A stretch of 64,000 nucleotides of DNA, taken from the IMG/VR virus record IMGVR_UViG_3300013936_000011, positions 32,001-96,000 of that record; one strand, 5' to 3'. Each line of letters begins with the position of its first letter. The first letter of the stretch is position 1. The stretch is from a virus (taxonomy: Duplodnaviria; Caudoviricetes). The notes beneath the pieces were generated by a model, which saw nothing but the letters and a program-made list of their open reading frames with translations, had not been told where the DNA came from and did no database searches. A program made the translations under genes and the position numbers. Of the stretch, positions 19,622-38,926 are shown one piece after another.

Positions 19622-19635
19622 GTAATATACATAAG
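19622..19635 (+). promoter_or_regulatory. Candidate late-promoter element GTAATA-W-rich-AG
   Basis: GTAATATACATAAG between terminator and SD; similar words at 8028, 51638 and 56108. Confidence 0.3.
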
Positions 19636-19654
19636 AAGGTAGGTGTGTGCGTAT

Positions 19655-22600: not shown

Positions 22601-25600
22601 ATAATAGAACTAGGTAGTTATGTACAAAAGAAAGACTATAACCTACGTCATGCTTTATCATATTTAGAACAAGGTATTTCCGAAGTTCGTGAAGCAAATC
22701 CAGAAGCTGGAGTTATTAGATCAACTGCAAAACGTGGAATAAAAACTAATTATTTAATGAGTAAATACAGAAATAATCTAACTCCTGAAGCGATGGCAGA
22801 AACCATGAAAGGTATAGGTAAAACCGTAGATGTATCTTCAGCAAAGGGTACAGAGAGAAAGAAAATGGTTGAAAAACTAGTCAACAGCTTTATCATAGAT
22901 GAAGGCACTTTCTCTAGAGATTTAAAAGCATTGCATGGTTCAAACACTGACGCCATAGAAGATACTATGTTAGCATATCGTACATTAAAGAAACAATATG
23001 GAACATTTGTTAATGACTTAATAGATGCTGCAGGTAACGTAGATATGAATTTAGTATTTAATGAAAAGTCTGGCAGACTATTTGTTCAAAAAGGAGAAAA
23101 GATGGTCGACTTAGATAATATAGCTAGAATTATAAGCGACCAAGGTGCTTTATATGGTAAGAGTGGAAGTCAAAGACTTGCTATACACCATGTACTAGAA
23201 TATGATCAAAGAGCGAAGGCTTTAAAATATAGAACTAATTTAGATGACCATTTCGGCGGAATGAAGACTTTAGTTAAAAGAATTGATAAGTTAGCTGAAA
23301 AGGGCGAAGTAGACCTTGACTCATTCAGAAGAGCTGTTGGTAAATTACAAGTTGATCTTAATGAAGCTCCTGTTTATAAATATAATTATGGTTCTTTATT
23401 ATTAGCTAATAGCCCAGTTGATATAAGAGGAGTAGATCCATTATATCCTGAACTATTTAAAGAAGATGGAGAATTCCATAGCATTATAACTCGTATGAGT
23501 AATAACGATAAATTCAATGTTGATGATTTACAAAACATAATGGAAAGAAGAATACCAGAGTCTTTAGAGCCTGGTAAACTTGATCCTATGCAAAGATCAT
23601 TAATGTCTCCAGACGTAGTCCCTATACTACAAGAGTTCAATAGAGCTACTACTAATAACTCTGTTGTCGATAGAATATTAAAACATATAAATGATACTGG
23701 TAAAGAAACTAAAGAGACTAAAGGTATAAAAGTAGTCAATGAATTGTATATTCCACAAGGCTCTGGAGGATTTGATAACTATGGTCGTCCAGTATCAGTA
23801 TCTGCTTTTAATAGAAACTGGATAAAAGCGAACACTATAGAAGAAGCTAGTAAGACATATGAAAATCTATTAATAGGTGCTAGAGTTATAGATACTAAAC
23901 AAGTACATGCAAACATATATAAAAATGTTAAAGAAGTCGGTAATCTAGCAGGTGACTTTGCAATAAGACAATTAAATATGTCAAACCAAAACATATCTCA
24001 ATTAGTTAAATACAAGAGAAATTCAGTAATTGATTCTATTATAAATAAATATTCAAACGATCCAGATAGAAAATATATAGCAGATGATGTTGAACAAATA
24101 ATGTCTGAAGTGGAACATATAGTAAGAGGTTCTGTATATGAACAAGGTAAACTTATGGACCCTGAATTATTTGAAAGACTTATCGGAGATAATCCTCAAG
24201 ACGTTAGAAAGATAAGTTATAACTTAAATGCTATTCCTGCTATAGAAGCTATGCTTGAAAGGGAAGATCCTGAGAAATTAATCAAGACTAAAATCCCTCA
24301 AATGAGGGAGATGTTTGGTGAATTAAAGAGAGACGAAAATGGACATTACAGATATGTTAAGACTCCTGGTACTATTATTAAACGTGGAGAAACTATATTC
24401 CCTTATGAAGCATTCGGCGATATAGAAAAGAGATTCGGTTCTAAATTCCCAGAGAGTGTATTAAGTCTGAAGTTTAGAAACAAAGAAGGTATTGAATTAT
24501 CTGAAGCCGAAATATCAAAAATTATAAATGATACTTTTGGTAAACAGGATATTGATATAAAAGATGTAATCAATCTATTTTCAAATGGCGATGAGTTTAC
24601 TGCAGCATATGAAGTAGCGCATATTTCTCAACAAGAATTACCTAAGACTTTCTCTAACAGTGCTGAAAAATCTATGACTCGTATACCATATGCAAAAACT
24701 GGTTCGCACGATCCGAGAATAAGAAAGATATTAACTGATACTGAAAATGATCATTGGGTTAAAAATATTGTATTGAGAGATGAGACTCTTGATGCTTGGT
24801 ATCATGATTTAGAAAAAGCTTATAAAGATGGTGGCAAGACAGCAAAAGATATTCTTAAACAAAATGGTTTTGATACTATACAAGATTTAAAAGAAGCTGC
24901 TAAACGCGAAAGATTACTTTATCGTGATTTTGTATTTGGTGAAAATAGTATATTTGGCATGGTATCTGTAATAGCTAATGATAATGTTACAGGCCATGAA
25001 AATATGGGTCATCAAATGTCTAGTGCATTAGGTGAAGCTATAAGACTTACTGGTAAATACACAGCTAAACCTGGTGCTAGCAATACTGAACAATGGGAAT
25101 CAGGTATAAATAAAGTAGCTGAAATAATAGCTTCCGATCCTAAGAAATTTGGCTTTATAAGAGAAATGGATAGTAGCAAAGGTGTAAATGAAGCTAAGAC
25201 ACTTGATATTTCTCAAAACCTATCATTGCTATTTAGTACAAATACATATGATAAAAATAAAAAAGGCATTGAAGTATTAGACTCTGAAAAGATAGTTAAT
25301 TTATTCAGAGAGATAGATAAAACTATACTTAAGAATGCTCCAGAAGAAGATAGACTAGTTCATACTAATCTTGAAGGTGTAGATGAATTAGTTGGAGCTG
25401 TTAAGACAATAACTGTAGACGGCAAGAGACATGCTATTGGTTCTGTAGGTGTTACTTCTACTGCATTTGCTGAAGATTCAGAAGTGCAATCTGGTGTCAG
25501 TCAAGAATATCTTGATGCTAAAAAAGCTTTAAGACAATACACTCATATGTTGGATCAAGTAAAGGCTATTAAGCCTGAAGATCTTACAGAACAACATATT

Positions 25601-28600
25601 AACTTGCTTAAGATTCTACCAGAGAGAATAGAAGAAATACGTAACGAAATAGATGCTATGTCTGACGGTGCTGCATTTATGAAAATAGATGATCAGCTTA
25701 GAAACATACTTAGTAACTCAGCTTTAAACAGTACTACTGAAAGACGTTTAAGTAATTTAATTGCAAACAGTAGTGATCCTTATGGGTATACTAAATTGAT
25801 AGAAGAAGCTTCTGATAAGTTAATAGCTCGTAATAAAGATGGAGAATTTGAAATAAATAAAAAGTATAAAACAGATAATGTCAATAGACCATGGCTAGAA
25901 GATGTTAAACAACAAATTACTTTCAATCCATTAGAAGAAGACGAGTTAACTGAAAAGATGTTAAAGGAAGAAGAATACAGACATCTTGAGCCTATATACA
26001 ATGAAGTAGTCAGAAAACGTGGTATGAAACTAGGAACTGATAGCGCCGAATTATTCTATCAAGGTAATATCGCTTATGCTGGTGCTAAATTTAATGCTGG
26101 CGGAAATGTTGATTTACAGCCTTTATTAGACAAAGGAGTTGAAGTTGTACCTGCAGAAAAATATGTAGGTAATCTTGGCAGAGCTTCAGCTGGTCAATTT
26201 GTAAGCTCATATGCTGACAAAACTATATTATTAGACTTAGGTGAAAACTATGCTAATATGTCTGAAACAGGAAACAGATACATAGCAGTACCTGGATTAG
26301 GTAATGTAGTGAACAGTCAAGAAATTAAAAGAGATTGGCAAAAGACTGCAGGCGCTTTAGCTAATACATGGCAAGAATGGTCTAACCTAGGATTTAATGA
26401 TACTGAAGAAGGTCTTAGATTAGTTAGCAGAATGGATGACTTATACGATAAATTAAATACTGAAAGTCAACAAATAGTTAAGAAAGGTAACGTATTTGCA
26501 GAGAAAGCGAAAGTAAGAGTTAATGCTCCTGCACAACGTCTTAAAATACAAGCTACTCTTGGCGAATCAGAACTTCACGATCCATTAATAGATAAGATAA
26601 GAGCAAATACTCCTGATAATTATAAGGTTGATGAAGACTGGTTCAGAGACAATGCGACAATATTAGGTAAATCAGTATCTGAATGGGAAAAACATGGTCC
26701 TAATGGTCCTAGCTTATATTATAACTACAGATTATCATCAATGTCAGACTTCCAAAATAAAGGTTATTTTGATTATGATTTCATGAGACAAATGGGATTC
26801 ACTAAGAAAGATGCTAGTGGAAACATGGTACCTATTACTGATAAAACTGAGTTACGAAGTGAAATGATAAACTATTTAAAAACTCATGGTACTATGGATA
26901 TCTCAGACCGTTATCCTAATATATATGATACATCTGCACTTACTAACTATACATTCTTAGACACAACATTAGCTGATAATGCTACAGCTATAGCAGGACA
27001 TACTTTATCTAATCTTAATGGTGACCTTGACGGTGATTCAGATTCAACAGTTAAAATAGCAAAGAATAACGTAAACTATCTTTTATATAATAAGCATAAA
27101 GAAGATTCTATGGCACAAATGAAAGCTGATTTAAAAGCTCAAAACATAGATATAGATTCTTTAGACAAAGATATGGTTGAAGAAAACTTACGTAGAAATA
27201 CTATTCAATCAATGAAGCAAAATAATGTCAGAGGTACTGCTGAAGAACTTGGCGAAGCTTATGATTTCTTTAGAGGAAAAGAATTAGAATCTATTAGAGT
27301 CGCTGTAGATAATGCTAAAGTTGTAAGAGAAAACGTAGCAGAGACACTTGCTAAAGATAGTGGTAGAGCTTATAAATCTATGGCTTTATCAGTAGATGGT
27401 AAAAACTTGTTAGCAGAAGTAGAAGGTGGACGTTCATCTCTTGGTAGATTAAGAACGTTTAATAGAAGAGAAAACGTTGGAGCTGGAGAATTAGTTAAAA
27501 GCGATAACGAATTAAAAGATTATTTCGCAGAAGCTGTAAATGTATTAGATAAACAACCTGATTTATTTAAAGGCGAAAAGTTTAAATACGTTGAAGGCAT
27601 GAGAGAAATAGGAGATAAAGAATCTGCTAAGACTGTTGTTTCATTTGGTAATAACCAAAGAGAAGCTTTAGATGAAATGCTTTACATATTACAAAAGAGT
27701 GGTAGTCAGATGGCTGACCAAGCAGAAACTGCAGCACTTGGAAGAATTCAACAAAATAAATATGTCGAATCACTATTATTCAAAGGTTCTAAAGATGCCA
27801 TAGGTTTGGTTGATGCTCAATTATATGCTATGAAGCAAGCATCTGATAATTACTTTGCTCAAGCAGAAAAAGATACTGAACGTAGATTAAGATTATCTGG
27901 TATGAGCGAAAGTGAAATCAGAAATAGTCCTGAACTAAAATCTATTGCATTAAAAAGAGGAAATATAACTTTATTCTCTGGCGGTTCAGAACAAGATATT
28001 ATATCAGCTAAAAAGCTTAAAATGTACGCTGGTGATGATCGTTTCATGTCATTTGGTGGAACAATGCAATCAATAAGAAGTGGTAGAGCTACACAAGAAA
28101 CTCGTGAAGACTTCTTAGATTGGTTCGAACGTTACGGTAAATTCTCTACTGTAGCTAGTCAATTTGATACATGGGCAGATGATGGTACATTAAGTGAATC
28201 TATGATTAATAAAGCTTCTTCTTATATTGATAAATATGAAAAAGAAGGCGTTAAAGATGCTGCTGAAAAAGGTAAAGCTATGTATCTTGCTGAACACTAT
28301 TATGATACTATAGATACATTAAATAAGAATAATGAAAGCTTTAGAGCAGATGCTAACTTATTTGCTGTATTCGGTAGAAATGGTGGTAGCGTAGAAAGAT
28401 TAGTTAATGTAGAAGGAGCTTCTGGTGAGAGTCACACAGCTTTAATACAAAGTTTATTAAGTGGCCAAGATGTATCTTATAAAGACCATGACTTTGAAAA
28501 ACAAGGCACTAGAGTTATGGCAGATAGATTAAAGAATATAAATAACTTTAAGAACATTACTAAAGCTAGTAGCGAAACATTAGAACATATAGTTGAAGGT

Positions 28601-29002
28601 GGCAAAGATAGTTTATTAAGTAGCCCCGCTTCTATAATAGGATTTAGTGCTATCGGTTTAGCTATAGGTGTAGCTGCTGCAGGATATGCAGGTGGACCAC
28701 TTAAGAAGAGTAAAGCTGTTCAAGACGAACAACAACAAAGACAACAAACAGACGATAGAATGACTGTCCCTGAATTTTTTGACAATCAAGGAGGCTTTGT
28801 TACAGGAAATTCACAACAGGGCTATATTATCAATATCAATGCTAATACTAAGAAAGGTGAACGTCATATGAAGAGAGCTATGAAAGAAGCTGTATCAGCT
28901 TCTGTTGGTGGCGCAGTAAGTATAAATATGAATTTCAAAAGTAATAGTAGTGGTGGATGGTCAGATAAAGATATCGAAAAAATAATTAATAATTATATGT
29001 AA
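19655..29002 (+). CDS. Giant virion protein: DEDDh 3'-5' exonuclease plus single-chain two-barrel (DxDGD) RNA polymerase, hydrophobic C-terminus
   Basis: Start revised to ATG 19655 (AGGTG SD 19641-19645). Exo motifs YDLET (20117), GHNIRGFD (20639), HSAGND (20963). RNAP motifs YEQG (24137), K-x7-K (24644/24668), VIANDNVTGHENMG (24968), RYP (26909), NGDLDGD (27017-27037). Confidence 0.8.
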   Translation: MANFNKNITIYDNKYSVVKGRRADGTFRSGSETLADRQKRVSTKFADDITAIQDFVDTFANQSKVIFRDDNTLVLKTSHKPFDRVEESEAAKKALDILNTNKFFNTITNKTSPSNVTLKYHNLANINTTASYDNMSHVFDKYQNIIKSNGTIVGYDLETLGGMSDGIWNPLGITEFGINKQHIVNGKVAKTTSENIMLSGTVNHTAELNKIRAVLMSPNGAKKLAEDPQYRGLLVSAKRYSMYGHKDTKIHFDGKKGYGVIDSFVGEKGEAWGNLEQITAGVNKFINIEKQASQAIDEASGLRKDVKTSIDYIFDIMKTGNDQHGLVVGHNIRGFDNAALNQYVKKLYNSDKAAQKYITSKMGILGINTPGFHLGPIAQADSLNFSRVVNNKNYMGALLDVSDRGRQILAQAGRGINKQENIGAVFFPHLFEGAMAHSAGNDTAVVNAFFTHRFTEDYLKKIGIDQDAIGTFKGKTLIEAMNDMMGSFDNAVDIKANRQQIFMANKTMNGSFGGKKVFNFTRDSQGNIITSTGHFINPNGGIEYNPVHGKQIGVVRNQPYTIVNYGSVNTSQYSGQLANLVPEFATDEAYYLNLEQVVGDKYKSRTNPTQTTMLFSTKEEMEGFIDSYLTPFAESTTGGGYKYLGNRKVAESYAKQYMLTDKGLEFNQQQWNSMFEAEQIKGALNSNFERRYEKKAAENFLFGDKSAKRIGESLDFIEYLNKKNLSAMTADDLGRIYYNKYSGMKVGNVEITKNLADEIRENIKDTFGFHPRDENGKPLEKKILLDATADNAIASFEHVKEQEKYYRNALNTVFKAHNINPSQHGSYGVTIAKSGQVMAAINNDFITLNDALSVPVANSVGEFMDLSEKGVRNLALNADTQLMPKALVDNMYEFKLSKDFYFNKKASNINGLMSPKEYQNIIQYSLDSSDPGMNFIDKLIKIQTGATRQLTETERIQSGRQVFYQFVNDELSKDKVLSKNQHIIELGSYVQKKDYNLRHALSYLEQGISEVREANPEAGVIRSTAKRGIKTNYLMSKYRNNLTPEAMAETMKGIGKTVDVSSAKGTERKKMVEKLVNSFIIDEGTFSRDLKALHGSNTDAIEDTMLAYRTLKKQYGTFVNDLIDAAGNVDMNLVFNEKSGRLFVQKGEKMVDLDNIARIISDQGALYGKSGSQRLAIHHVLEYDQRAKALKYRTNLDDHFGGMKTLVKRIDKLAEKGEVDLDSFRRAVGKLQVDLNEAPVYKYNYGSLLLANSPVDIRGVDPLYPELFKEDGEFHSIITRMSNNDKFNVDDLQNIMERRIPESLEPGKLDPMQRSLMSPDVVPILQEFNRATTNNSVVDRILKHINDTGKETKETKGIKVVNELYIPQGSGGFDNYGRPVSVSAFNRNWIKANTIEEASKTYENLLIGARVIDTKQVHANIYKNVKEVGNLAGDFAIRQLNMSNQNISQLVKYKRNSVIDSIINKYSNDPDRKYIADDVEQIMSEVEHIVRGSVYEQGKLMDPELFERLIGDNPQDVRKISYNLNAIPAIEAMLEREDPEKLIKTKIPQMREMFGELKRDENGHYRYVKTPGTIIKRGETIFPYEAFGDIEKRFGSKFPESVLSLKFRNKEGIELSEAEISKIINDTFGKQDIDIKDVINLFSNGDEFTAAYEVAHISQQELPKTFSNSAEKSMTRIPYAKTGSHDPRIRKILTDTENDHWVKNIVLRDETLDAWYHDLEKAYKDGGKTAKDILKQNGFDTIQDLKEAAKRERLLYRDFVFGENSIFGMVSVIANDNVTGHENMGHQMSSALGEAIRLTGKYTAKPGASNTEQWESGINKVAEIIASDPKKFGFIREMDSSKGVNEAKTLDISQNLSLLFSTNTYDKNKKGIEVLDSEKIVNLFREIDKTILKNAPEEDRLVHTNLEGVDELVGAVKTITVDGKRHAIGSVGVTSTAFAEDSEVQSGVSQEYLDAKKALRQYTHMLDQVKAIKPEDLTEQHINLLKILPERIEEIRNEIDAMSDGAAFMKIDDQLRNILSNSALNSTTERRLSNLIANSSDPYGYTKLIEEASDKLIARNKDGEFEINKKYKTDNVNRPWLEDVKQQITFNPLEEDELTEKMLKEEEYRHLEPIYNEVVRKRGMKLGTDSAELFYQGNIAYAGAKFNAGGNVDLQPLLDKGVEVVPAEKYVGNLGRASAGQFVSSYADKTILLDLGENYANMSETGNRYIAVPGLGNVVNSQEIKRDWQKTAGALANTWQEWSNLGFNDTEEGLRLVSRMDDLYDKLNTESQQIVKKGNVFAEKAKVRVNAPAQRLKIQATLGESELHDPLIDKIRANTPDNYKVDEDWFRDNATILGKSVSEWEKHGPNGPSLYYNYRLSSMSDFQNKGYFDYDFMRQMGFTKKDASGNMVPITDKTELRSEMINYLKTHGTMDISDRYPNIYDTSALTNYTFLDTTLADNATAIAGHTLSNLNGDLDGDSDSTVKIAKNNVNYLLYNKHKEDSMAQMKADLKAQNIDIDSLDKDMVEENLRRNTIQSMKQNNVRGTAEELGEAYDFFRGKELESIRVAVDNAKVVRENVAETLAKDSGRAYKSMALSVDGKNLLAEVEGGRSSLGRLRTFNRRENVGAGELVKSDNELKDYFAEAVNVLDKQPDLFKGEKFKYVEGMREIGDKESAKTVVSFGNNQREALDEMLYILQKSGSQMADQAETAALGRIQQNKYVESLLFKGSKDAIGLVDAQLYAMKQASDNYFAQAEKDTERRLRLSGMSESEIRNSPELKSIALKRGNITLFSGGSEQDIISAKKLKMYAGDDRFMSFGGTMQSIRSGRATQETREDFLDWFERYGKFSTVASQFDTWADDGTLSESMINKASSYIDKYEKEGVKDAAEKGKAMYLAEHYYDTIDTLNKNNESFRADANLFAVFGRNGGSVERLVNVEGASGESHTALIQSLLSGQDVSYKDHDFEKQGTRVMADRLKNINNFKNITKASSETLEHIVEGGKDSLLSSPASIIGFSAIGLAIGVAAAGYAGGPLKKSKAVQDEQQQRQQTDDRMTVPEFFDNQGGFVTGNSQQGYIININANTKKGERHMKRAMKEAVSASVGGAVSINMNFKSNSSGGWSDKDIEKIINNYM

Positions 29003-29028: not shown

Positions 29029-29065
29029 ATGATAGGCTTAGATTGTCCTAGGCCTATCGTTTATT
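29029..29065 (+). terminator. Stem-loop / possible weak terminator after the RNAP gene
   Basis: ATGATAGGCTTAG-ATTGTC-CTAGGCCTATCGT (two G-U pairs) followed by TTATT. Confidence 0.55.
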
Positions 29066-29086
29066 ATATGTAAAGGAAGTGAAAAA

Positions 29087-32000
29087 ATGGCTAATAATCT
29101 TTCAGATATAAGAGATAAATGGGCAGAGATGAAAGTCTCTAAAGTAGAAAATACTGATATGGATATAGAAGATTTTGTCCCTAATATCTACGAAATGATA
29201 AAAGAAGATTGTATTACTGAATATCTAGGGTCTATATCTGATTCTTTAAATAAAGGCAAAGATGATTATAAGAACGTAGCTTATTATTGCGAAGCTCCTT
29301 ACAGTGAAACTCTAGGCTATGATGATAAAGAAAAGGTCTGGGTATTAAGTGTAGACGGAATAGAATATAGTAAAAATATGCTTGATATGGGTTCTATAGA
29401 TGGTGATACATATGGTTTTAGTTTTTCTGATATAGATGATGGTGGCAAAAGCGCAACTATAGGTTCTAAAACATATAAAGGATTTGAAGATTATATTAAA
29501 TCTATGAACTGCGTTAGTAGTGGTGGCGACGACAGAGGCGGTATTAAAGTCAGAGCCGCAGGTGTAGACTGTGCCGAAATCCCTCACTACGAAGCTGTGG
29601 TTGTTTACAATAAAGATACAGAACTAGAAGCATTGACATGGGACCAAATAGAAGGTTTAGCTGTATCTAAAAAAGCTGAGATACAATATGCTCCTTATCT
29701 TATAAATAAGAATAAGAGTGATGATCCTGATAAATGGACTCTTTCAGAAAGAGATAAATCACACTCTGTTTTATTCTACAAAAACAAACAAGACGGAATT
29801 ACTACTTATCTAGAAGTAGTTAAAAAAGATGCTTCTTATTTATTTAGCTCATCTAGTGATTATGCTGGCGGTACTCCTATGTTAGTTGTAGGAGCTGGTA
29901 AATCTTGGGGCAAGGATACAGTATTAGATGGTTATAAAGCTCAAAGAAGAATCAAAGAGCTTTTAATAGATAAAAAGAGCAGCATACAAGATATGATACT
30001 AATACTTGATGCTCACACTACTACTGCAGTTAGAACAGCTCCTACATATACATGTTATACCTCTTTATATTATTTCCCTGAAACAGTAAAAAATATAATA
30101 CAAAGTTGGATTGATAAACAAGATGGTAGACCATTAAGCAGATTAACTTATTCTCCATTCGGTACAGATAAATATGGACGTTTACTAGGAACACTATACG
30201 TTAAGATGAAAATGAACGGAGAATCTGTATGGATTAATGTATCTAAATATGTTCAAGCAGGAACAAACCTTACTGAACCAGATCCTGATTTTAGTGGTTC
30301 TCCAGAATTAGAAGGTATTTACAACGGACTAAGTAACGATGCATTTAAAATAGGAAGTTATAATAACTCTTATAGATTTATAGATGATAGTAATGTTAGC
30401 GGAAATGAATCATTTGAAAAAATGATCAAACTTCATGAATCTCTTACTGGTTTAGAATGGAACGCAGAAAAAGAATGTACTGTATTGCTTGGTGATAGCT
30501 TCTTCTTAATTCCTCCACAAAGTATTCGTAATGTAAGTAACATAGATTATACAAAAGTACCACTATTAAGAAGTAAAGGTACCATGGTTAAGAATCAAGC
30601 TAACCGTGAACAAGTACTCGAAATGGACGTATTCTTCTATGGTGAAAATGGTATCAACGGTATTCCGTATAAAGCAGAAACGCCTAATGGTACAGAAGTT
30701 ACTTACTATATGAATGGTCTAAGAGCATTATTTGCTCAGTTCAGAATATGCCCTTTCTTACCTATTCATAATTATTATATCAATAATGTATTAGGAATAG
30801 AAGCTGTAACAATGGTAGGCATCTCACTTGATACGGTTGAAGGATTTCCTAAATTGCTTAAAGCTACTCTTACTCTTCGTGAGTTTAACTACAGAGTTTA
30901 TATGCCAGATTTACCTATACAATATGTAAATAGTGATACTGGTAAAATACAAGACTTTGAACCTATATTTGCCAAATGTTTCGAATGGGAAGTTTACAGA
31001 TATTATTATCAAAGATGTATTATGCACGGAGAAGAAATAAGTAAGTATACTTACAATACATATGAATACGGTGAATACTATTATTCTTATAAGAATGTCT
31101 TACAACGTGCAAATTTAACTTCTCAAAGTATAGAGTTTTATGTGCCAGATGATAATTGGTTAACTAAAGCTTTACAATGCAAAAAAGATAAGGATAGATA
31201 TGGTCAAATGATATCTTCAGTATCATTAAATGATGATGAATCAAGTTATGTAAATGAAATAGCTGGCGATGATCCATTAGTAGATAACGATACTTTTAAA
31301 AGCAAACTTAAAACATTGCTTAAGGATAGTAAGGTTCAACTTAAAAATAAATATAATACTTCAGATAGTGTAGTTGGTGTCAACACCAATGATATATACC
31401 GTACTGATGATTATGCTACAACATGGTCTAAATCAAGAACTCATGTTATGGATGTTAAACCTAGCGATCTTAAAACTATATTCAAGAACAGACTAAATGT
31501 ATTATTTAACTTAGGATGGGTTAATGATGTTACATTAGATGAAGGATTAAATAGTGCTAATACAGCAGTCGTATGGACTTTTAATATCAAGCTTGATACT
31601 AGTAAAGTTAGTTTAGATAATATCAGAGAATATGTCAGAGACTTATCAACTAAGACAGATGAAGGTGCTTCATCAGCTAACTTCTTTAAAGATGGATGCG
31701 GTAAATATATCGTAACAGCTCAATATGATGAAAACAGTAAGTTTGTCGGCGTATCAGCTGCTTATGATGCAGGACTTGCCGCTATAATGGCCGCAGGTTC
31801 AGGAAGTAATAAGCCATCTGAAGTTAGCACAACTTCTGAAGTATTCAATTATGCAAACTATACAGATCCTAAAGCTATGAAGTTTGTTCCTTACATAAAA
31901 GATTTAAATGGTAACAGTGTAAGCATAGATCTAGATTTATTACATGTAGTAACACAAAACACTTTTACAGAAATGTATTTAAAAGCTCAAGATGGTTTTG

Positions 32001-35000
32001 CTCCTCAATTTATGGGTGGAGGAGATGTAACATTTGAAATAATGTTTACTACACAAGATTTATTAGTAGTATCATTAATGAATCAATTACCTGCTTATGC
32101 ATTACAAACAACTAAAACATATCGTAGAGTAATGCCTTGTTTCCCAGTTAAAGCTAAAAATGATTATTTACAAATGCTAGGAATTAATGAGTGCTTGGTC
32201 GAAAATGTTAACGTAACAACAGTAGACGGCTTCCCTGGAACTTATCAAATACAAATGAGATTCACATCTGTAGATAGAACATTAAGACAAAGAGAAGCTT
32301 TACGTAAAATAAATACTGATGGATTTACTAGTGATATAGCATCTACTAATATAAAAGATTATTTTTCATTAGAAGAAGCTCTAGCACAATCTGAATTATA
32401 TCCTGACTTAGATTTACCTAGTCTTGCTGAATTAGAGAAACTAGGTTGGAGCTATTTAAAATATGCTAATGAGAATAGAGCATATGTCGATCCTGATTTC
32501 TATATTATATATTCTTATCAATACAGCGCTCAGATGACTAAAGAGATAGTTAAAACATATTTGTATGACAAATATTATGTAGCAGCTGAAAAGGATAAGG
32601 AAGATGGTACAGAAACAAAAACAGTTGGACAATGTTCTGCCAGTGATTCTGTATTACATATGGAAGACGATAGTGGTCTTGTTTTAGCAACTAAGCTTAA
32701 TAAGATAATGGGACTTGATGTATGCGATAATAGTCAAAACTCTGTATCTAAATATGCGCAAGAATTAATGAGTCAGCTCAATGTAGCAGGTGAACAAGAA
32801 ACTTTATTTAGAAAAGGTAGTATGTTTGCATCTGATAATTTCGATGACTTAATGGAATTAGGCACAACTTTATCTTGCTTAACAGCTTATGGTATAGAAA
32901 ATGGATGGCAAATAAAAGAAGGTTGGTTTGCTACATTGTCTCAAACTTATGTTAATGATTTAGTTGAAAGATTAAAAGTATCAGGCATCAACAAAGCTAA
33001 CAGTAAAAAAGAAGATAAAGAAGCAAAATGGGTAAACGAAATATACACAAAGAGAAGAAATGCTATCCTTGCTATAAATGAAATACTATATTCTCCAATG
33101 GAATTAGAAGGCGGAAATAGATATGCTGATTTATCATGTGTTGCTGATGCTTTCTGTAAAGTATTCGATACTGATGCTGGTATAAGACTATTAAATATTT
33201 TAGACCCTATGGGCAATTATTCAAAAGGCGGATTAAAGAAACTTGCTACTACTGGTGGTGAAAGTGGTGGAGCATCTAGCGGTCACTTTAGTGAAAAAGA
33301 TGGCTACTATTATGGAGACTCTTCTTATACTACTGACAATGCTGGTGAAAAATTTGATGAAGAAGTATGGGCTGAAGGTAACTTGCCATTATACTTACAA
33401 GGATATATTTACGCAGCAGGTTGTTGTCGTACTGGTCAACAATATAATAAGAGCAATAACGACTGGGCTCCACAACAATTTATTAATGGCGATACTAATA
33501 AACCTAATATAAGATATAAAGATAACAAAGTAGTTAAAGCATACGACGAAAATGATAAAGACATAAAGAAGATAGCTAAAGATAAGAACTTAGGCATGGA
33601 AGATGCTTATTGGTATTATGTAGCTACTGTTGGAGATTTCTTTGGTGCTTGGGGAATAGGTAAATATAATATCAAAAGAATACAAGATATGATGTGTCCT
33701 AAAAGCCAAGTTAATTATAAATGTAAAGAAATGTACGATTTAAGTAAAGATCCTAAATGGTGCGAAAAAGGATTCCTTGATCCATATTATAACTACCAAG
33801 GTTACAGAAGTAAAAAAGGTCGTGACTATATAAAAGCTATATCTACTAATGCATGCGATAACTGTGTAGCTTTCATACGTGTAGTATTACAAAAGCTAAA
33901 AGAAATGCTAATAGATGGTTATTTTATAAGTGAAGTAGATGTTATAGCTGGAAACTATGATCAAGTAAAAAAAGAATGGGACGAATATATTGATCAATGG
34001 GATAGTTCCTTAAACTATAATAGTGGTGATCAAGACCACGGCGGAAGTGGCAAAAAGCTACAAGAAGAGGCACTTAATGATGCAATAGAAAAGAAATACG
34101 GTATGTCTAAAGAAGATATGGATGCATTAATAGAAGACGATATACCAACTAGTTATTCTCAAATATTTAGTGCTAGAATGATTTATCCTGTAATGTTAAT
34201 GGCAATAGACTGTAATGCTAAAATAGCTAAGTTAGTAACAAAGAGAAATTATGATGAATTAAATAATATGACTCTTGGTACTTCTGTAGGTACTGCTGAC
34301 TGTACTCCTATGAATAAATTCTTACAAGCATTAGCTGGAATTAAGATGTTAGGAACAACTATGGAAACAGATACAGATGCCATAACATCAAATGCACAAA
34401 AGATATTTAATACTTTAATGCAAGAAATAGCTGAAAACTTCTCTAACGATCCTAGAAGATATGTACTTCATAGTTTCTATGATATGCTTACTACTGATAA
34501 GAGAGGTAGATTAGTAAGGGCTTTCCCTACATTTTATATTATATTTGTAGATGAAGGTAGACGTATAGGTACATGGAAATTATACGATAACTTCTACAAC
34601 ATGTCAGCTATAAGCAATATAGATATTGTTAAATCTAGAAAAGTACCAGCAGATACATGCACATTTACTATGAGTAACTTATATACTTCATATGCTTCTA
34701 CATACGATAATACAGTGTATCAACAATACGTAGATGTATATGGTGTTAAAGATTACTTTAATAGCATATTCTCTCCTCGTGCTTATTTAAATACAGAAGA
34801 GATGATACGTGGACGTAAACAATTAACAGATACTACAGTATTAAGTGCAGGTGTTAGAATACATGTAAGAATGGGTTATGGTTCTGATGGTTCTAAATTG
34901 CCTATAGTATTTAATGGTAAAATAGCCGAAGTTAACTGCGGTGAAACTATCGATGTAGTATGTCAAGGTGATGGTCATGAATTAATGAATCCATTAAATG

Positions 35001-37462
35001 CATTTGGTGAACTTGAAGCTAAGTCTCTCGAAGAAGCACAAAGCTGGGTTACAATATGTAAAGATATCCGTGGAGCAATAGCTCGTGGTGGCGAAACTCC
35101 TAAGAACTTAGTTGCAAAACTAATGACTGCTAAATACGGTGGCGTAGTTAAAACAGCTATCAGAAAAATGTTTAATAACAGATTCTTCTCTGAAAACCCA
35201 TTTGGTATATATCATTTCGGAGATAGAAGATTTAAAGATATATTTGCAGATAGTGAAATAGTTCAAAACTTATATGAAGTATCAGATGAAGCTATATTAT
35301 CAGGCGTAACAGCTTTGGTCCCTGATAAGTCAGAAAGTAATTCGACTCCTACAATCAACTGTTCAATACAAGATAAATCAATGTGGGAAATAGTTAATCT
35401 ATGCGCTCATGCAGGTGATGATTATTTTGCAGCAATCAGAGACTTTGGTATGAGAAGTACATTATGTATGATGAAAGGTAATCATTATTATGCATATGCT
35501 TATAAGAAAGTAAACAGTGTGATTTATGAAAGACGCAAGCCTTTCCAACAATATCATTATTTCGATTCTTATAACGATATAATCTATAATAGCATCGAAG
35601 CTACAGAAACTAATATGAAAACTAATGCTGTAGGTACATGGCAAGCAACAGACTTTATCTGGGGACATGAACAAGCTACAGTAGGTCCTGTATATCTAGA
35701 CATGAATATATATCCTGAATATCAAAAATCTATGACAGTAGATACTGGTCTTATAGCTAGTGGTAACGGCGGTATCGATATACCACTTATAACTGGTTTA
35801 TCAGAAAGATGGTCAACTGATGCTGATGATGATAAAGTTAACAAGCAATTAGCGAGAAAGATAACTACTAACGTACTTAGAGAATCTGTAAAGGATATGT
35901 ATGATGGACAATTATGTGTAATAGGAGATCCTTCAGTTAAACCATATGATAGATTTGATATCGTAGATACATATGAAGATATGTCTGGACAAATGGAAGT
36001 AGAAACAGTTGTATTTAGTATGAACAGTGAAACAGGTTTTACTACTACAATAACTCCTGATTTAATAGTTCGTGCAGTAGACTGTACTCAAGAAACAAGT
36101 TATCAAAATGTAACTGGACATTTCTTAGCTACTGAAGGTATAGCTGTTACAGCTAGATTAGGTATGGCTAAATTAATTGAATCTAGTGCTACAGCAACTT
36201 TAACTTCTTCAATAATGTCATCTGCTAAATTAAGCTCTTTAGTAGAAAGCTTAGGTGGAGCGGAAGCTTGGGCAAGTCTTAATCAATTAATAACTTCTAC
36301 TACGGTTGGAACTGAAACTGCGGGTGTAGCTGCTGTATTATTAAATCCTGTAACATTAATCGAAACAGTTGTTGCTGGTGCTTGTATATTTATAATTGCA
36401 AAGAATATTCAAGCTGCTTTATTTAACTGGTTAAGAAACGTTCAGGCCTTAACTGTTTATCCTATAAATAAATATCAAAGACAATTAATAGCTGGTATGG
36501 CAGGTCATCGTGGTTCTGTAATGGGTTACCCTTATAAACAATCAAAAGATTCTATACAAGCTATGATAATGGCAGGTTATGAAAAGATAACTGATGTGCC
36601 TATAGTTGGTTCATTAACTAAATCTTTCTGTAAAGGCTCAAATGTAGATAGCGTATTTGAACATTGGAGAGAATCTTTAGGTATAGCTCAAATGTCTAAC
36701 GATACTAATTTATCTATAGAAAATCTATATCAAGAAATATGTGGTTATGCTTCAAAAGAGTATTCATCTAATGGAGCTGAAATACAAGCCCTTAAATTCA
36801 AAGATAGATTGTTGAGTTTTGATACTAAAGGCAAAACAGATCAAACATTCTTACTTTATCAAATAGGTGGTATCGATGATCCAGATAAAAAAGAATACGA
36901 AAGTTTACCTCCTGATGAAAAGAAAAAAGTAACAATAAAAGAATTGCCTACAAATAAGAGAGTTTTAGCATTAACTCCTATAGAAGATGATGATGAAATT
37001 AAGCTTGCTAAAAGTGGTGGACATTCTGTTATCAAAAACTTTAAGATAGCTCATGCAACTAGTGCCTTAGAAGTAGGTATGAAATTTGAAGGTGGAGATA
37101 GAGTTATTAAATATATCACAGATAATGAAGGTAAAGTTTTCGACTTACCTATGATACAAACAGATGCTATATATGTAATAAAAGTAATAATGCAAGATGA
37201 AGCTCTACAAGGAGCAGAACTTACTTTTAATAGTGGTACTAGAGTTAATGATTCACGTTCATGGAAAAGTACAGGATTTGCATTCGTACTTGACTGCGAT
37301 AACAAGGATTCATTAATAACAGCAATTAAGAACGCTAGAAAACAAACAGATTGCGAAACATTAGGACCAAATAGTAAAAAAATAAAACGTCATGTATTTT
37401 CTTATCAAGACACTGATAATGGTGTTGCAATAACAGTATATCCAGGAAAGTCAGGTGAATAA
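29087..37462 (+). CDS. Giant baseplate hub protein (gp27/gpD-like) with N-terminal thermonuclease domain
   Basis: Hub signatures RIHVRMGYGSDG...VFNGKIAEV (~34855) and VIGDPSVKPYD...GQMEVETVVF...GFTTTITPD (~35920-36060); SNase motifs DGDT, RAAGVDCAE, TDKYGR. Confidence 0.78.
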   Translation: MANNLSDIRDKWAEMKVSKVENTDMDIEDFVPNIYEMIKEDCITEYLGSISDSLNKGKDDYKNVAYYCEAPYSETLGYDDKEKVWVLSVDGIEYSKNMLDMGSIDGDTYGFSFSDIDDGGKSATIGSKTYKGFEDYIKSMNCVSSGGDDRGGIKVRAAGVDCAEIPHYEAVVVYNKDTELEALTWDQIEGLAVSKKAEIQYAPYLINKNKSDDPDKWTLSERDKSHSVLFYKNKQDGITTYLEVVKKDASYLFSSSSDYAGGTPMLVVGAGKSWGKDTVLDGYKAQRRIKELLIDKKSSIQDMILILDAHTTTAVRTAPTYTCYTSLYYFPETVKNIIQSWIDKQDGRPLSRLTYSPFGTDKYGRLLGTLYVKMKMNGESVWINVSKYVQAGTNLTEPDPDFSGSPELEGIYNGLSNDAFKIGSYNNSYRFIDDSNVSGNESFEKMIKLHESLTGLEWNAEKECTVLLGDSFFLIPPQSIRNVSNIDYTKVPLLRSKGTMVKNQANREQVLEMDVFFYGENGINGIPYKAETPNGTEVTYYMNGLRALFAQFRICPFLPIHNYYINNVLGIEAVTMVGISLDTVEGFPKLLKATLTLREFNYRVYMPDLPIQYVNSDTGKIQDFEPIFAKCFEWEVYRYYYQRCIMHGEEISKYTYNTYEYGEYYYSYKNVLQRANLTSQSIEFYVPDDNWLTKALQCKKDKDRYGQMISSVSLNDDESSYVNEIAGDDPLVDNDTFKSKLKTLLKDSKVQLKNKYNTSDSVVGVNTNDIYRTDDYATTWSKSRTHVMDVKPSDLKTIFKNRLNVLFNLGWVNDVTLDEGLNSANTAVVWTFNIKLDTSKVSLDNIREYVRDLSTKTDEGASSANFFKDGCGKYIVTAQYDENSKFVGVSAAYDAGLAAIMAAGSGSNKPSEVSTTSEVFNYANYTDPKAMKFVPYIKDLNGNSVSIDLDLLHVVTQNTFTEMYLKAQDGFAPQFMGGGDVTFEIMFTTQDLLVVSLMNQLPAYALQTTKTYRRVMPCFPVKAKNDYLQMLGINECLVENVNVTTVDGFPGTYQIQMRFTSVDRTLRQREALRKINTDGFTSDIASTNIKDYFSLEEALAQSELYPDLDLPSLAELEKLGWSYLKYANENRAYVDPDFYIIYSYQYSAQMTKEIVKTYLYDKYYVAAEKDKEDGTETKTVGQCSASDSVLHMEDDSGLVLATKLNKIMGLDVCDNSQNSVSKYAQELMSQLNVAGEQETLFRKGSMFASDNFDDLMELGTTLSCLTAYGIENGWQIKEGWFATLSQTYVNDLVERLKVSGINKANSKKEDKEAKWVNEIYTKRRNAILAINEILYSPMELEGGNRYADLSCVADAFCKVFDTDAGIRLLNILDPMGNYSKGGLKKLATTGGESGGASSGHFSEKDGYYYGDSSYTTDNAGEKFDEEVWAEGNLPLYLQGYIYAAGCCRTGQQYNKSNNDWAPQQFINGDTNKPNIRYKDNKVVKAYDENDKDIKKIAKDKNLGMEDAYWYYVATVGDFFGAWGIGKYNIKRIQDMMCPKSQVNYKCKEMYDLSKDPKWCEKGFLDPYYNYQGYRSKKGRDYIKAISTNACDNCVAFIRVVLQKLKEMLIDGYFISEVDVIAGNYDQVKKEWDEYIDQWDSSLNYNSGDQDHGGSGKKLQEEALNDAIEKKYGMSKEDMDALIEDDIPTSYSQIFSARMIYPVMLMAIDCNAKIAKLVTKRNYDELNNMTLGTSVGTADCTPMNKFLQALAGIKMLGTTMETDTDAITSNAQKIFNTLMQEIAENFSNDPRRYVLHSFYDMLTTDKRGRLVRAFPTFYIIFVDEGRRIGTWKLYDNFYNMSAISNIDIVKSRKVPADTCTFTMSNLYTSYASTYDNTVYQQYVDVYGVKDYFNSIFSPRAYLNTEEMIRGRKQLTDTTVLSAGVRIHVRMGYGSDGSKLPIVFNGKIAEVNCGETIDVVCQGDGHELMNPLNAFGELEAKSLEEAQSWVTICKDIRGAIARGGETPKNLVAKLMTAKYGGVVKTAIRKMFNNRFFSENPFGIYHFGDRRFKDIFADSEIVQNLYEVSDEAILSGVTALVPDKSESNSTPTINCSIQDKSMWEIVNLCAHAGDDYFAAIRDFGMRSTLCMMKGNHYYAYAYKKVNSVIYERRKPFQQYHYFDSYNDIIYNSIEATETNMKTNAVGTWQATDFIWGHEQATVGPVYLDMNIYPEYQKSMTVDTGLIASGNGGIDIPLITGLSERWSTDADDDKVNKQLARKITTNVLRESVKDMYDGQLCVIGDPSVKPYDRFDIVDTYEDMSGQMEVETVVFSMNSETGFTTTITPDLIVRAVDCTQETSYQNVTGHFLATEGIAVTARLGMAKLIESSATATLTSSIMSSAKLSSLVESLGGAEAWASLNQLITSTTVGTETAGVAAVLLNPVTLIETVVAGACIFIIAKNIQAALFNWLRNVQALTVYPINKYQRQLIAGMAGHRGSVMGYPYKQSKDSIQAMIMAGYEKITDVPIVGSLTKSFCKGSNVDSVFEHWRESLGIAQMSNDTNLSIENLYQEICGYASKEYSSNGAEIQALKFKDRLLSFDTKGKTDQTFLLYQIGGIDDPDKKEYESLPPDEKKKVTIKELPTNKRVLALTPIEDDDEIKLAKSGGHSVIKNFKIAHATSALEVGMKFEGGDRVIKYITDNEGKVFDLPMIQTDAIYVIKVIMQDEALQGAELTFNSGTRVNDSRSWKSTGFAFVLDCDNKDSLITAIKNARKQTDCETLGPNSKKIKRHVFSYQDTDNGVAITVYPGKSGE

Positions 37463-38389: not shown

Positions 38390-38926
38390 ATGATAGATTT
38401 TCAATTAAATAAAAATGGAGATTTGTTGTTTGAAGAATCACAGGTCTTAAATAATAGTTTTGAATTAAACTTCTTTGTATCTAAAAGTGATACATTAGCT
38501 ATAAATTTTTATACTGAAAATCTATCTTCGTTCTCATATTTAGAGAATCATAAAGAAGATAGAATATTGAATCCTGGTATATGTTTAAATTTATATATCA
38601 AGAAAACAGAAAATAATAAAGAAGTTGTAATAGCTAAAGATGAAGATTATATTGAACAACAGATAAAAATAAGACTTCAAACTGCATTAGGCACGCTGTT
38701 AAACAATGAAGACATAGGATCTGATTTAGATTTATATAAACATAATATAATTGCGGATAATGATAATTTTAGTATTATTAGAGAAAGTGCTAAAAGAGCT
38801 ATAAGCGATATTTTACCAAATGCAGAAATTGATGTTCAAAAAATAGAAACTATCTACTTAGATTATAGTAATAGTTTAATGATAACAATCAAAAACGATG
38901 ATTATAATTACTATTATTATGTATAG
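38390..38926 (+). CDS. Baseplate wedge / sheath initiator (gp25/gpW-like)
   Basis: MIDFQLNKNGDLLF and IEQQIKIRLQTALGTLLNNEDIGSDL motifs; precedes baseplate J. Confidence 0.7.
   Translation: MIDFQLNKNGDLLFEESQVLNNSFELNFFVSKSDTLAINFYTENLSSFSYLENHKEDRILNPGICLNLYIKKTENNKEVVIAKDEDYIEQQIKIRLQTALGTLLNNEDIGSDLDLYKHNIIADNDNFSIIRESAKRAISDILPNAEIDVQKIETIYLDYSNSLMITIKNDDYNYYYYV

What the first reader, a model, noticed from the sequence alone, without database searches (positions are those of the whole stretch)
29390..30250. Baseplate hub begins with a thermonuclease whose catalytic residues are all intact
Seen: IDGDT (D105/D107), VRAAGVDCAE (R156, D161, E164) and GTDKYGRLLG (D361, R365). Established: staphylococcal nuclease uses D19/D21, R35-x4-D40-x2-E43 and TDKYGR87; the local spacings match exactly, but large insertions separate the motifs. 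Hubs of Gram-positive phages usually carry muralytic enzymes rather than nucleases. Inference: either a tail-tip DNase for extracellular DNA in biofilm or mucus, or an injected nuclease.
Basis: partly seen in the sequence, partly recalled or inferred. Interest (0 to 1): 0.78.

Follow-up and report, generated by a model that had tools for sequence, protein, structure and literature searches.

The report
Split nuclease on jumbo-phage tail hub
The giant tail-tip (baseplate hub) protein of an uncultured jumbo phage starts with a staphylococcal-type nuclease domain that looks active and is interrupted by three insertions. This arrangement is typical of its phage lineage and was first noted in 2007, and nobody has tested what the nuclease does.

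Summary
ORF 29087-37462 (+, 2791 aa) contains IDGDT (aa 104-108), VRAAGVDCAE (155-164) and GTDKYGRLLG (359-368) with exact SNase spacings. Chance expectation is about 5e-8 per protein.

An AlphaFold model puts the motifs in one SNase OB fold: 1sta_A Z 9.0, 125 of 137 residues aligned, and the next 14 hits are all SN-like. Three insertions hide the domain from Pfam (14.9 bits against a cut-off of 21). A profile-profile comparison with real SNases gives 95.5% probability, or 98.7% with the insertions removed.

Residues about 1812-2330 are a true gp27/Mu gp44-type hub (Z about 20). The nuclease therefore sits about 1,400 residues before the hub domain, in the same polypeptide.

In 70 family members the catalytic core is intact in 65. 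The five degenerate cases fall at three separate places on the hub tree, and all carry a second, Spd1-like nuclease domain. That pattern argues for real nuclease function.

Cultured relatives also have N-terminal SNase domains on their hub proteins: Bacillus phages WH1 and KLEB27-3, and Moorella phage MTATph1. Hardies et al. 2007 reported one on the BtI1 hub. This scan has already found the same arrangement in at least 7 other genomes.

It is a new member of a known kind. Where it acts (cell surface or injected) is unresolved. Interest is moderate.

The parts
29087..37462 (+). Whole gene: 2791-aa multidomain tail-tip protein (P0001). Order of modules: SNase, conserved middle modules, hub, hydrophobic segment, C-terminal domain.
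   Evidence: ORF list and translation. RBS at 29071-29079. 31 homologues of 2.7-3.3 kaa and 74 representatives in 1.84 billion proteins.
29087..29266 (+). N-terminal helical leader, aa 1-60. Conserved, but modelled with low confidence.
   Evidence: Model secondary structure and pLDDT. Conserved columns M1, K11, P32, M37, E40, D41.
29294..29422 (+). SNase segment A, aa ~70-112: strands beta1-beta2 with IDGDT. D105, D107 and T108 correspond to SNase D19, D21 and T22.
29423..29536 (+). Insertion 1, aa ~113-150.
   Evidence: Spanned as a gap in the hhalign alignment to real SNases. Model.
29537..29587 (+). SNase segment B, aa ~151-167: strand beta3 and the catalytic loop VRAAGVDCAEIPH. R156, D161, C162, E164 and H167 correspond to R35, D40, T41, E43 and H46.
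29588..29902 (+). Insertion 2, aa ~168-272: a beta-rich inserted domain of unresolved fold.
   Evidence: Model pLDDT 85-92. Only weak structural rows, Z<3. Weak beta-trefoil-like Atlas leads at 0.85-0.87.
29903..30016 (+). SNase segment C, aa ~273-310: helix alpha1 and strand beta4.
   Evidence: hhalign alignment of the core. Model.
30017..30151 (+). Insertion 3, aa ~311-355. Low-confidence, partly helical.
   Evidence: pLDDT 33-40.
30152..30286 (+). SNase segment D, aa ~356-400: GTDKYGR followed by strands beta5-beta6 and helix alpha2. D361, K362, Y363 and R365 correspond to D83, K84, Y85 and R87.
   Evidence: Pfam SNase sub-threshold hit at aa 354-376. PDB thermonuclease 5ige_A local alignment. 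hhalign. VIA.
30464..31306 (+). Conserved module, aa ~460-740, shared with cultured relatives. It may resemble a tail-tube initiator or Dit (lead only).
   Evidence: BLASTP to Moorella phage MTATph1 CDS0032, E 4e-40. Atlas clusters at 0.92-0.93, some carrying PF23980 or PF21821.
31874..32416 (+). Second conserved module, aa ~930-1110, DUF6046-like.
   Evidence: Pfam DUF6046 sub-threshold in P0001 and above cut-off in relative P0023. Weak internal repeat with the previous module.
34520..36076 (+). Baseplate hub domain, aa ~1812-2330 (gp27 / P2 gpD / Mu gp44 fold).
   Evidence: Foldseek E 3.5e-13 to 1e-7 against baseplate hubs of contractile injection systems and phages. VIA: 3d37_B Z 20.4, pyocin R2 hub Z 19.3, Mu gp44 Z 19.0 with 300 of 325 residues aligned. 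phrog_20474 E 7e-171.
36323..36424 (+). The most hydrophobic segment of the protein, aa 2413-2446, just after the hub.
   Evidence: Kyte-Doolittle scan. Aligned to the equivalent region of the Moorella phage.
36434..37459 (+). C-terminal domain, aa ~2450-2791, with no family match. In relatives this position holds cell-wall peptidases.
   Evidence: No Pfam or NCBIfam hit. 0305phi8-36 ORF147 has NlpC/P60 and M23 here, and the Moorella phage protein has a weak VanY hit.

Best explanation
Shown in silico: the first ~400 residues of the 2791-aa tail-tip protein form a staphylococcal-nuclease (SNase) OB-fold domain. It keeps the complete Ca2+/phosphate-binding and general-base set (D107, D161, E164, R156, R365, Y363, K362). 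Three lineage-specific insertions interrupt it. The same polypeptide carries the trimeric baseplate hub about 1,400 residues further on.

Inferred: each virion carries three copies of an active, Ca2+-dependent, sugar-non-specific nuclease at or inside the tail tip. My preferred reading (about 0.4, the confidence given for this entry) is that the domain is exposed or released at the cell envelope when the tail fires. There it would cut DNA outside the cytoplasm: extracellular DNA of the biofilm or gut matrix, or DNA bound to the wall of its probably Bacillota host. It would play the same local barrier-clearing role that wall hydrolases play at this position in relatives.

That it is an SNase-fold domain with an intact site: about 0.9. 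That it is catalytically active as a nuclease in the virion: about 0.65.
For: Fold: VIA-align top hit is staphylococcal nuclease 1sta_A (Z 9.0, rmsd 2.6 A, 125 of 137 residues aligned, 21% identity). Ranks 2-15 are all SN-like domains (Z 5.3-7.7), then scores drop to 3.2.

Sequence: hhalign of a 70-sequence phage profile against 20 genuine SNase domains gives Prob 95.5 (E 1.4e-8) unedited, and Prob 98.7 (E 2.1e-16, 77 columns from DGDT to DKYGR..VY) with the insertions removed.

Selection: catalytic positions are kept in 64-69 of 70 family members, against a mean top-residue frequency of 41% across the domain. The five proteins with a degenerate core all carry a second, Spd1/streptodornase-like nuclease domain (5 of 18, against 0 of 52 without it). 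They fall at three separate places on the hub tree.

Site of action:
- The same N-terminal position holds wall hydrolases in relatives: Amidase_2 in P0010, and a transglycosylase in 0305phi8-36 gp147 according to PMC2147016.
- From established knowledge, SNase needs millimolar Ca2+, and both SNase and Spd1-type enzymes are classic secreted DNases of Gram-positive bacteria.

Host: cultured relatives infect Bacillus and Moorella, and related contigs are binned mostly with Bacillota MAGs.

Virion status: the homologue WH1 gp094 is deposited as a virion structural protein.
Against: - No activity data exist for any member.
- P0001 itself fails the Pfam SNase cut-off (14.9 bits against 21). It also has no significant NCBIfam hit, PDB sequence hit or Foldseek PDB hit.
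- I had no model coordinates, so active-site geometry is inferred from the alignment, not measured.
- The Tyr113/Tyr115 base-stacking positions of SNase have no obvious equivalent.
- The domain's location in the virion is unknown. If the modules between it and the hub stack as tube initiators, the N-terminus could lie in the tube lumen and be ejected inward.
- Earlier notes of this scan say the upstream gene encodes an injected RNA polymerase and exonuclease. I did not confirm this, but if true it favours delivery into the cell.
- The link between a dead SNase core and a second nuclease rests on only three loss events.
Confidence: 0.4

Rival explanations
1. Injected nuclease. The N-terminal part of the hub protein lies in or near the tube lumen and is expelled into the host cytoplasm with the tape-measure-position proteins. 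There it degrades host DNA or RNA (or plasmids and rival phage DNA) at the start of infection. This would be a phage counterpart of nuclease effectors delivered by T6SS spikes and extracellular contractile injection systems.
For: - The hub is a VgrG/gp27 homologue.
- The module order (SNase, possible tube-initiator-like region, hub) runs from the top of the tail to the tip (lead only).
- Precedents exist for enzymes delivered through tails: P23-45 tape-measure-fused RNA polymerase (PMC10770324) and a nuclease effector injected by a phage tail-like structure (bioRxiv 10.1101/543298).
- Earlier notes of this scan say the upstream 3119-aa protein carries an RNA polymerase and an exonuclease.
- From my own knowledge, the PF13930 domain found in relatives also occurs in toxins delivered into cells, such as S. 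aureus EsaD.
Against: - SNase-type enzymes need far more Ca2+ than the cytoplasm offers (established knowledge).
- A non-specific nuclease entering together with the phage genome would endanger that genome, and I saw no protective feature.
- No immunity-like extra gene sits next to the hub gene in the window or in L007.
- My sequence searches did not confirm the upstream polymerase or exonuclease.
Confidence: 0.3
2. Phosphodiesterase for a non-nucleic-acid envelope polymer. The SNase scaffold at the tail tip cleaves phosphodiester-linked wall polymers, such as teichoic acids, as glycerophosphodiesterase domains on other Gram-positive phage tails are thought to do.
For: - The position is shared with wall-degrading domains in relatives.
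- The host is probably Gram-positive.
- The SNase base-stacking tyrosines are not evident.
- The inserted domain gives weak lectin-like (beta-trefoil) leads.
Against: - I know of no SNase-fold enzyme with such a substrate.
- The complete nucleotide-phosphate-binding set (R156, R365, K362, Y363) is kept.
- The domain becomes dispensable only where a bona fide DNA/RNA endonuclease domain is present, which points to nucleic acid as the substrate.
Confidence: 0.08
3. Non-catalytic OB-fold. The domain only binds nucleic acid (for example the leading end of the phage genome) or serves as an assembly or plug module, and the conserved 'catalytic' residues serve binding.
For: OB folds are common structural parts of tail spikes (T4 gp5 N-terminal domain; established knowledge). 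SN-like domains in Tudor-SN and extended-Tudor proteins are mostly non-catalytic, and they are the next-best structural matches. Some lineages tolerate loss of the catalytic residues.
Against: The whole catalytic set, including the general base Glu and both Ca2+-ligand Asp residues, is kept in 93-97% of members at 25-45% overall identity. Binding alone would not require this. Losses occur only where another nuclease is present.
Confidence: 0.12

Closest known systems
Hub protein of the BtI1 prophage-like element and relatives of Bacillus phage 0305phi8-36 gp147 (Hardies, Thomas & Serwer 2007, Virol J 4:97, PMC2147016)
   Same: - A giant gp27/gpD-type hub protein encoded after the tape-measure gene and before the gpV-, gp25- and gpJ-like genes.
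- An N-terminal staphylococcal-nuclease domain at the place where 0305phi8-36 itself carries a transglycosylase.
- The hub domain of the window protein is 29% identical to ORF147 (E 3e-65).
   Different: - The window's SNase is split by three insertions (about 38, 105 and 45 aa) and is invisible to Pfam.
- The protein is about 900 aa longer than ORF147.
- It has no recognisable wall hydrolase.
- It comes from an uncultured phage of about 260 kb.
Hub proteins of cultured jumbo phages: Bacillus phage vB_BceM_WH1 gp094, Bacillus phage vB_BauM_KLEB27-3 gp035, Moorella phage MTATph1 CDS0032
   Same: - Collinear architecture: SNase, then the conserved 460-740 module, the 930-1150 module, the hub and the hydrophobic segment. 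BLASTP to MTATph1 gives E 4e-40, 3e-15 and 2e-92 for the three blocks.
- N-terminal DGDT, R..(D/N)..E..H and YGR motifs are present in MTATph1; KLEB27-3 keeps DGDT and YGR but has Gln at the D161 position and no His.
- WH1 gp094 reaches the Pfam SNase cut-off (25.9 bits).
- WH1 and MTATph1 also hit the NCBIfam calcium-activated nuclease EcnA model.
   Different: Their SNase domains are compact or carry smaller insertions. They are deposited as 'virion structural protein', 'putative baseplate protein' or 'endolysin', with no nuclease mentioned. Identity to the window protein is only about 30%.
Staphylococcus aureus thermonuclease (SNase, PF00565; PDB 1sta)
   Same: OB-fold core, with residue-for-residue equivalents of D19, D21, T22, R35, D40, E43, H46, D83, K84, Y85 and R87.
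   Different: SNase is a 149-aa secreted, free enzyme. Here the fold is interrupted three times and fused to a 2.4-kaa virion scaffold. T41 is Cys (only its backbone binds Ca2+ in SNase), and the Tyr113/115 equivalents are unclear.
Nuclease effectors carried by contractile injection systems (T6SS spike-borne nucleases; the nuclease injected by a phage tail-like structure, bioRxiv 10.1101/543298)
   Same: A nuclease physically associated with a gp27/VgrG-type hub of a contractile device.
   Different: Those are bacterial weapons, with the effector at the C-terminus of the spike or loaded as separate cargo. Here the nuclease is at the N-terminus of a hub protein of an infectious phage, and delivery into the cell has not been shown.
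Spd1 / streptodornase D (PF13930, PDB 2xgr, 5fgw)
   Same: Relatives of the window protein carry this nuclease type at about aa 740-930 (E 2.5e-10 to Spd1).
   Different: The window protein has no such domain and no remnant of one.

Membership tests
SNase / thermonuclease superfamily (PF00565) | OB-fold beta-barrel with three helices | tested here: met
   AlphaFold model (pLDDT 84-94 over most of the core). VIA-align: 1sta_A Z 9.0, rmsd 2.6 A, 125 of 137 residues aligned. The next 14 hits are all SN-like, then scores drop to Z 3.2.
SNase / thermonuclease superfamily (PF00565) | Ca2+ ligands (D21, D40, T41 backbone), general base E43, phosphate-binding R35 and R87, plus K84/Y85 | tested here: met
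   D107, D161, C162, E164, R156, R365, K362 and Y363 align to these positions in the profile-profile alignment with 20 genuine SNases. They are kept in 64-69 of 70 relatives, except D161, which is D in 41 and mostly N in the rest, as in some genuine SNases.
SNase / thermonuclease superfamily (PF00565) | Significant sequence-profile match to the family | tested here: inconclusive
   The Pfam HMM gives 12.9-14.9 bits, below the 21-bit cut-off. hhalign to real SNases gives Prob 95.5% unedited and 98.7% with insertions excised. The insertions explain the Pfam failure.
SNase / thermonuclease superfamily (PF00565) | Ca2+-dependent endo/exonuclease activity yielding 3'-phosphates | not testable with these tools
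   Needs a biochemical assay.
gp27 / P2 gpD / Mu gp44 baseplate hub | Four-domain hub fold, including the two tube-like barrels | tested here: met
   Model of aa 1760-2390. Foldseek E 3.5e-13 to 1e-7 against contractile-injection-system and phage hubs. VIA Z 20.4 (3d37_B), 19.3 (pyocin R2 hub) and 19.0 (Mu gp44, 300 of 325 residues aligned).
gp27 / P2 gpD / Mu gp44 baseplate hub | Gene position between the tape-measure-position gene and the gpV-, gp25- and gpJ-like baseplate genes of a contractile tail | tested here: met
   Sheath at 4333-7299. Giant genes at 13167-29002. gp25-like at 38390-38926. Baseplate_J at 38927-39739. The order is the same in 0305phi8-36.
gp27 / P2 gpD / Mu gp44 baseplate hub | Trimer at the tip of the tail tube in the virion | not testable with these tools
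   Only indirect evidence: homologue WH1 gp094 is deposited as a virion structural protein.
0305phi8-36 gp147-like giant hub family with N-terminal SNase | Collinear homology over the hub and middle modules, plus an N-terminal SNase domain | tested here: met
   tblastn of the hub domain hits six phage records, five distinct cultured jumbo phages (29-34% identity, E 3e-65 to 4e-87). Collinear BLASTP blocks to MTATph1. SNase motifs or Pfam hit in MTATph1, KLEB27-3 and WH1.
Endonuclease_NS_2 / Spd1-like nucleases (PF13930) | beta-beta-alpha-metal finger with the N-R-C-H-L-I-G catalytic motif | tested here: not met
   Present in 18 of 70 relatives but absent from P0001, even at permissive thresholds. 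The window protein is not a member.

The most novel reading that the evidence does not exclude
The hub-borne nucleases are warheads that this jumbo-phage lineage injects, not surface-clearing enzymes. These are SNase everywhere in the family, plus a Spd1-like domain in some clades. They would enter the cell through the contractile tail together with the enzymes said to be fused to the upstream tape-measure-position proteins, and destroy host or competing DNA before any phage gene is expressed. That would be a phage equivalent of evolved-VgrG nuclease toxins. The inserted domains would keep the nuclease latent until firing.
Probability: 0.25. Interest if true: 0.7.

Novelty: new member of a known kind. 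Interest (0 to 1): 0.4.

Why it matters
Tail-tip enzymes of phages are normally wall or capsule hydrolases. A conserved and apparently active nuclease at this position implies that nucleic acid is something these phages must cut in order to infect. The target could be extracellular DNA in biofilm, gut contents or the cell wall, or the host's own DNA after injection.

The protein family is common in metagenomes. The exact protein occurs on 26 contigs, and its 90%-identity cluster has 241 members. The family also has cultured relatives, so the question can be tested directly.

The result also shows that domain insertions can hide a complete enzyme from standard annotation. Finally, it gives one new piece of evolutionary evidence: the SNase core decays only where a second nuclease is present.

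Tried and rejected
Searches that gave nothing significant for the window's N-terminal domain:
- Pfam (sub-threshold only).
- NCBIfam.
- PHROGs.
- phmmer against PDB sequences, using the whole domain and two halves. The only related row was a thermonuclease at E 1.5.
- The full-length family profile against PDB, which found only Spd1-type hits for the relatives' insert.
- Foldseek against PDB. Only VIA-align recovered SNase.
- tblastn of the N-terminal 500 aa against 50,697 phage records.
- Close-relative scan of IMG/VR, which returned only near-identical loci.

Other dead ends:
- Sequencing-run search: no RNA holder listed. Most holders are coded or have small shares, so I draw no conclusion about habitat.
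- The fold of insertion 2 is unresolved. VIA rows are below Z 3 (SH3, SlyD and PDZ-like), and Atlas gives only 0.85-0.87 beta-trefoil-like leads.
- The upstream 3119-aa protein: Pfam and PDB sequence searches found no polymerase or exonuclease. I could neither confirm nor refute the earlier structure-based notes.
- No remnant of the Spd1-like domain exists in P0001.
- Literature searches found no assayed virion-borne SNase on a phage tail.

Readings I rejected:
- Chance motifs (expectation about 5e-8).
- Spurious ORF (conserved full-length in at least 70 proteins, with a good RBS).
- 'Not a hub' (Z about 20 to solved hubs).
Full report
**Observation.** The window is a one-strand block of phage structural genes at about 31% G+C. 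ORF 29087-37462 (+) encodes 2791 residues.
- IDGDT at aa 104-108
- VRAAGVDCAE at aa 155-164
- GTDKYGRLLG at aa 359-368

His167 lies three residues after Glu164, as His46 does after Glu43 in staphylococcal nuclease. From the protein's composition, an ordered DGDT / R-x4-D-x2-E / TDKYGR triple is expected about 5e-8 times per protein. The start codon has a strong ribosome-binding site.

**Is it one SNase fold?** Standard searches fail on the window protein:
- Pfam SNase scores 12.9-14.9 bits against a cut-off of 21, and only over aa 354-376.
- NCBIfam, PHROGs and PDB sequence searches give nothing significant.
- Foldseek against PDB gives nothing significant.

An AlphaFold2 model of aa 1-500, built with 30 homologues, has mean pLDDT 70, and most of the core scores 84-94. 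The exhaustive VIA-align search of 48,161 chains gives staphylococcal nuclease 1sta_A as the top hit: Z 9.0, rmsd 2.6 A, 125 of its 137 residues aligned, 21% identity. Ranks 2-15 are all SN-like domains (Tudor-SN and extended Tudor, Z 5.3-7.7). The next row drops to Z 3.2.

I then took 20 genuine SNase domains from Bacilli-class genomes and compared them with a 70-sequence profile of the phage domain using hhalign:
- Unedited: probability 95.5%, E 1.4e-8, across motifs I and II, with insertion 1 spanned as a gap.
- With the three insertions excised: probability 98.7%, E 2.1e-16, over 77 columns running from DGDT through the catalytic loop, helix 1 and strand 4 to DKYGR..VY.

The insertions are about aa 113-150, 168-272 (a confident beta-rich domain of unresolved fold) and 311-355 (low confidence).

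**Is it a hub?** The gene follows a tail sheath gene, tube-like genes and two giant genes (2142 and 3119 aa). It precedes gp25-like and Baseplate_J genes. A model of aa 1760-2390 matches solved baseplate hubs:
- Foldseek E 3.5e-13 to 1e-7 against hubs of contractile injection systems, phi812, Mu, T4 and pyocin.
- VIA Z 20.4 (3d37_B), 19.3 (pyocin R2 hub) and 19.0 (Mu gp44, 300 of 325 residues aligned).

The hub domain is aa ~1812-2330. 'The hub begins with a thermonuclease' is therefore true of the polypeptide, but about 1,400 residues separate the end of the SNase domain (~aa 400) from the hub domain. Between them lie conserved modules:
- aa ~460-740, with Atlas leads to tail-tube-initiator or Dit-like clusters.
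- aa ~930-1110, DUF6046-like.

After the hub comes the most hydrophobic segment of the protein, aa 2413-2446. A C-terminal domain with no family match follows.

**Family and selection.**
- The word-indexed search found 31 homologues of 2.7-3.3 kaa.
- The exhaustive search found only 74 representatives among 1.84 billion proteins. Apart from a few shorter proteins and short fragments, they are giants of 2.1-3.2 kaa, most with the domain at or near the N-terminus, and no ordinary SNase was hit.
- The exact protein occurs on 26 contigs of up to 264,696 bp, and its 90% cluster has 241 members.
- The window's own record is an IMG/VR contig estimated at 56% complete.

In 70 full-length members the core D107/R156/E164/R365 is intact in 65. 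Individual catalytic positions are kept in 64-69 of 70, against a mean top-residue frequency of 41% for the domain. D161 alternates with Asn, as it does in some genuine SNases.

Eighteen relatives carry a second nuclease domain at about aa 740-930. It is PF13930/PF01223, with E 2.5e-10 to the streptococcal prophage DNase Spd1. The window protein has none, and no remnant of one.

All five proteins with a degenerate SNase core belong to these eighteen, and none belongs to the other 52. On a quick hub-domain tree they fall at three separate places: P0010, P0036 and the P0019-21 clade. Three events is a small number. Still, the pattern is what redundancy between two nucleases predicts, and it is the best available argument that the SNase domain is selected for nuclease activity.

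**Relatives and precedent.** The hub domain finds six phage records at 29-34% identity, five distinct cultured jumbo phages:
- Moorella phage MTATph1
- Bacillus phage KLEB27-3
- Bacillus phage WH1
- Bacillus phage Edson
- Bacillus phage 0305phi8-36 (present as two records)

Their hub proteins are collinear with the window protein. Three of them start with SNase motifs:
- MTATph1 has a compact, canonical domain.
- WH1 gp094, deposited as a virion structural protein, reaches the Pfam SNase cut-off at 25.9 bits.
- WH1 and MTATph1 also hit the NCBIfam calcium-activated nuclease EcnA model.

Phage 0305phi8-36 ORF147 instead carries NlpC/P60 and M23 peptidases. [quoted passage not shown] One metagenomic relative, P0010, has an Amidase_2 domain in front of a degenerate SNase.

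The scan's own index shows the same arrangement already followed up in at least seven other genomes, with the same 2007 precedent. I found the paper independently before seeing those notes.

**Host.** All cultured relatives infect Bacillota. Four of five MAG bins holding related contigs are labelled Bacillota, Clostridium or Bacilli. Binning is weak evidence, but a Gram-positive host is likely.

**Mechanism.**
- Shown in silico: an SNase-fold domain with a complete catalytic set, under purifying selection, sits in the same polypeptide as the tail hub.
- Inferred: three active, Ca2+-dependent nuclease domains per virion.

Where they act is open. I favour action outside the cytoplasm, at the cell surface or wall (about 0.4), for three reasons:
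- Wall hydrolases occupy the same position in relatives.
- SNase needs millimolar Ca2+.
- Both nuclease types found on these hubs are archetypal secreted DNases of Gram-positive bacteria.

Injection into the cell (about 0.3) is favoured by the VgrG-like context, the top-to-tip module order, and precedents for enzymes delivered through tails (PMC10770324; bioRxiv 10.1101/543298). Earlier notes that the upstream gene encodes an injected polymerase and exonuclease also favour it, but my sequence searches did not confirm them. A structural or binding-only role (about 0.12) and a non-nucleic-acid phosphodiester substrate (about 0.08) are less likely.

**Verdict.** This is a new, insertion-split member of a known and lineage-typical arrangement, and its function remains untested. 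Interest is moderate.

Noticed in passing
window 29029-29060: A 13-bp-stem hairpin followed by a T-rich tail lies between the stop of the 3119-aa gene (29002) and the start of the hub gene (29087). It could be a terminator or attenuator that sets the ratio of the two giant proteins.
   Followed up: no
window 17775-17915 (inside the 2142-aa ORF 13167-19595): The best Pfam SNase hit in the whole 146.6-kb record (15.5 bits, sub-threshold) lies in the 2142-aa upstream protein, not in the hub protein.
   Followed up: partly
window 36323-36424 (aa 2413-2446): The only strongly hydrophobic, membrane-span-like segment of the protein sits directly after the hub domain. It aligns with the equivalent region of the Moorella phage MTATph1 protein.
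   Followed up: partly
window 30464-31306 and 31874-32416: Two conserved modules between the nuclease and the hub share a short 'P-x-P...N-x-Y...G-I...V-x-T-V-x-G-F-P' stretch (BLASTP E 0.001). The first has protein-language-model leads to tail-tube-initiator or Dit-like clusters, and the second resembles DUF6046. The giant protein may be a fusion of several baseplate-core proteins.
   Followed up: partly
relatives P0008-P0027 and P0036 (for example P0008 aa 788-932); P0010 aa 27-152: Eighteen relatives carry a Spd1/streptodornase-like DNA/RNA endonuclease domain inserted at about aa 740-930. One relative (P0010) also has an N-terminal Amidase_2 domain. The hub's N-terminal half appears to be a platform for swapping enzyme domains.
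   Followed up: partly
window 36434-37459 (aa 2450-2791): The C-terminal ~340 residues match no family. At the same position 0305phi8-36 has NlpC/P60 and M23 peptidases, and the Moorella phage has a weak VanY hit. No wall hydrolase was recognised anywhere in the window's hub protein or in its immediate neighbours.
   Followed up: no
L043 1960-3447 (Moorella phage MTATph1, record 34538-36025): An annotated transposase gene sits inside the tail module of this cultured relative, between the giant upstream gene and the hub gene.
   Followed up: no
L019 and L042 (SNase genes in genomes G060 and G045, 0.7-0.8 Mb): SNase-family matches in two very small Bacilli-class genomes contain in-frame TGA codons (3 and 1). 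This is what a TGA=Trp (table 4) genetic code would produce.
   Followed up: no
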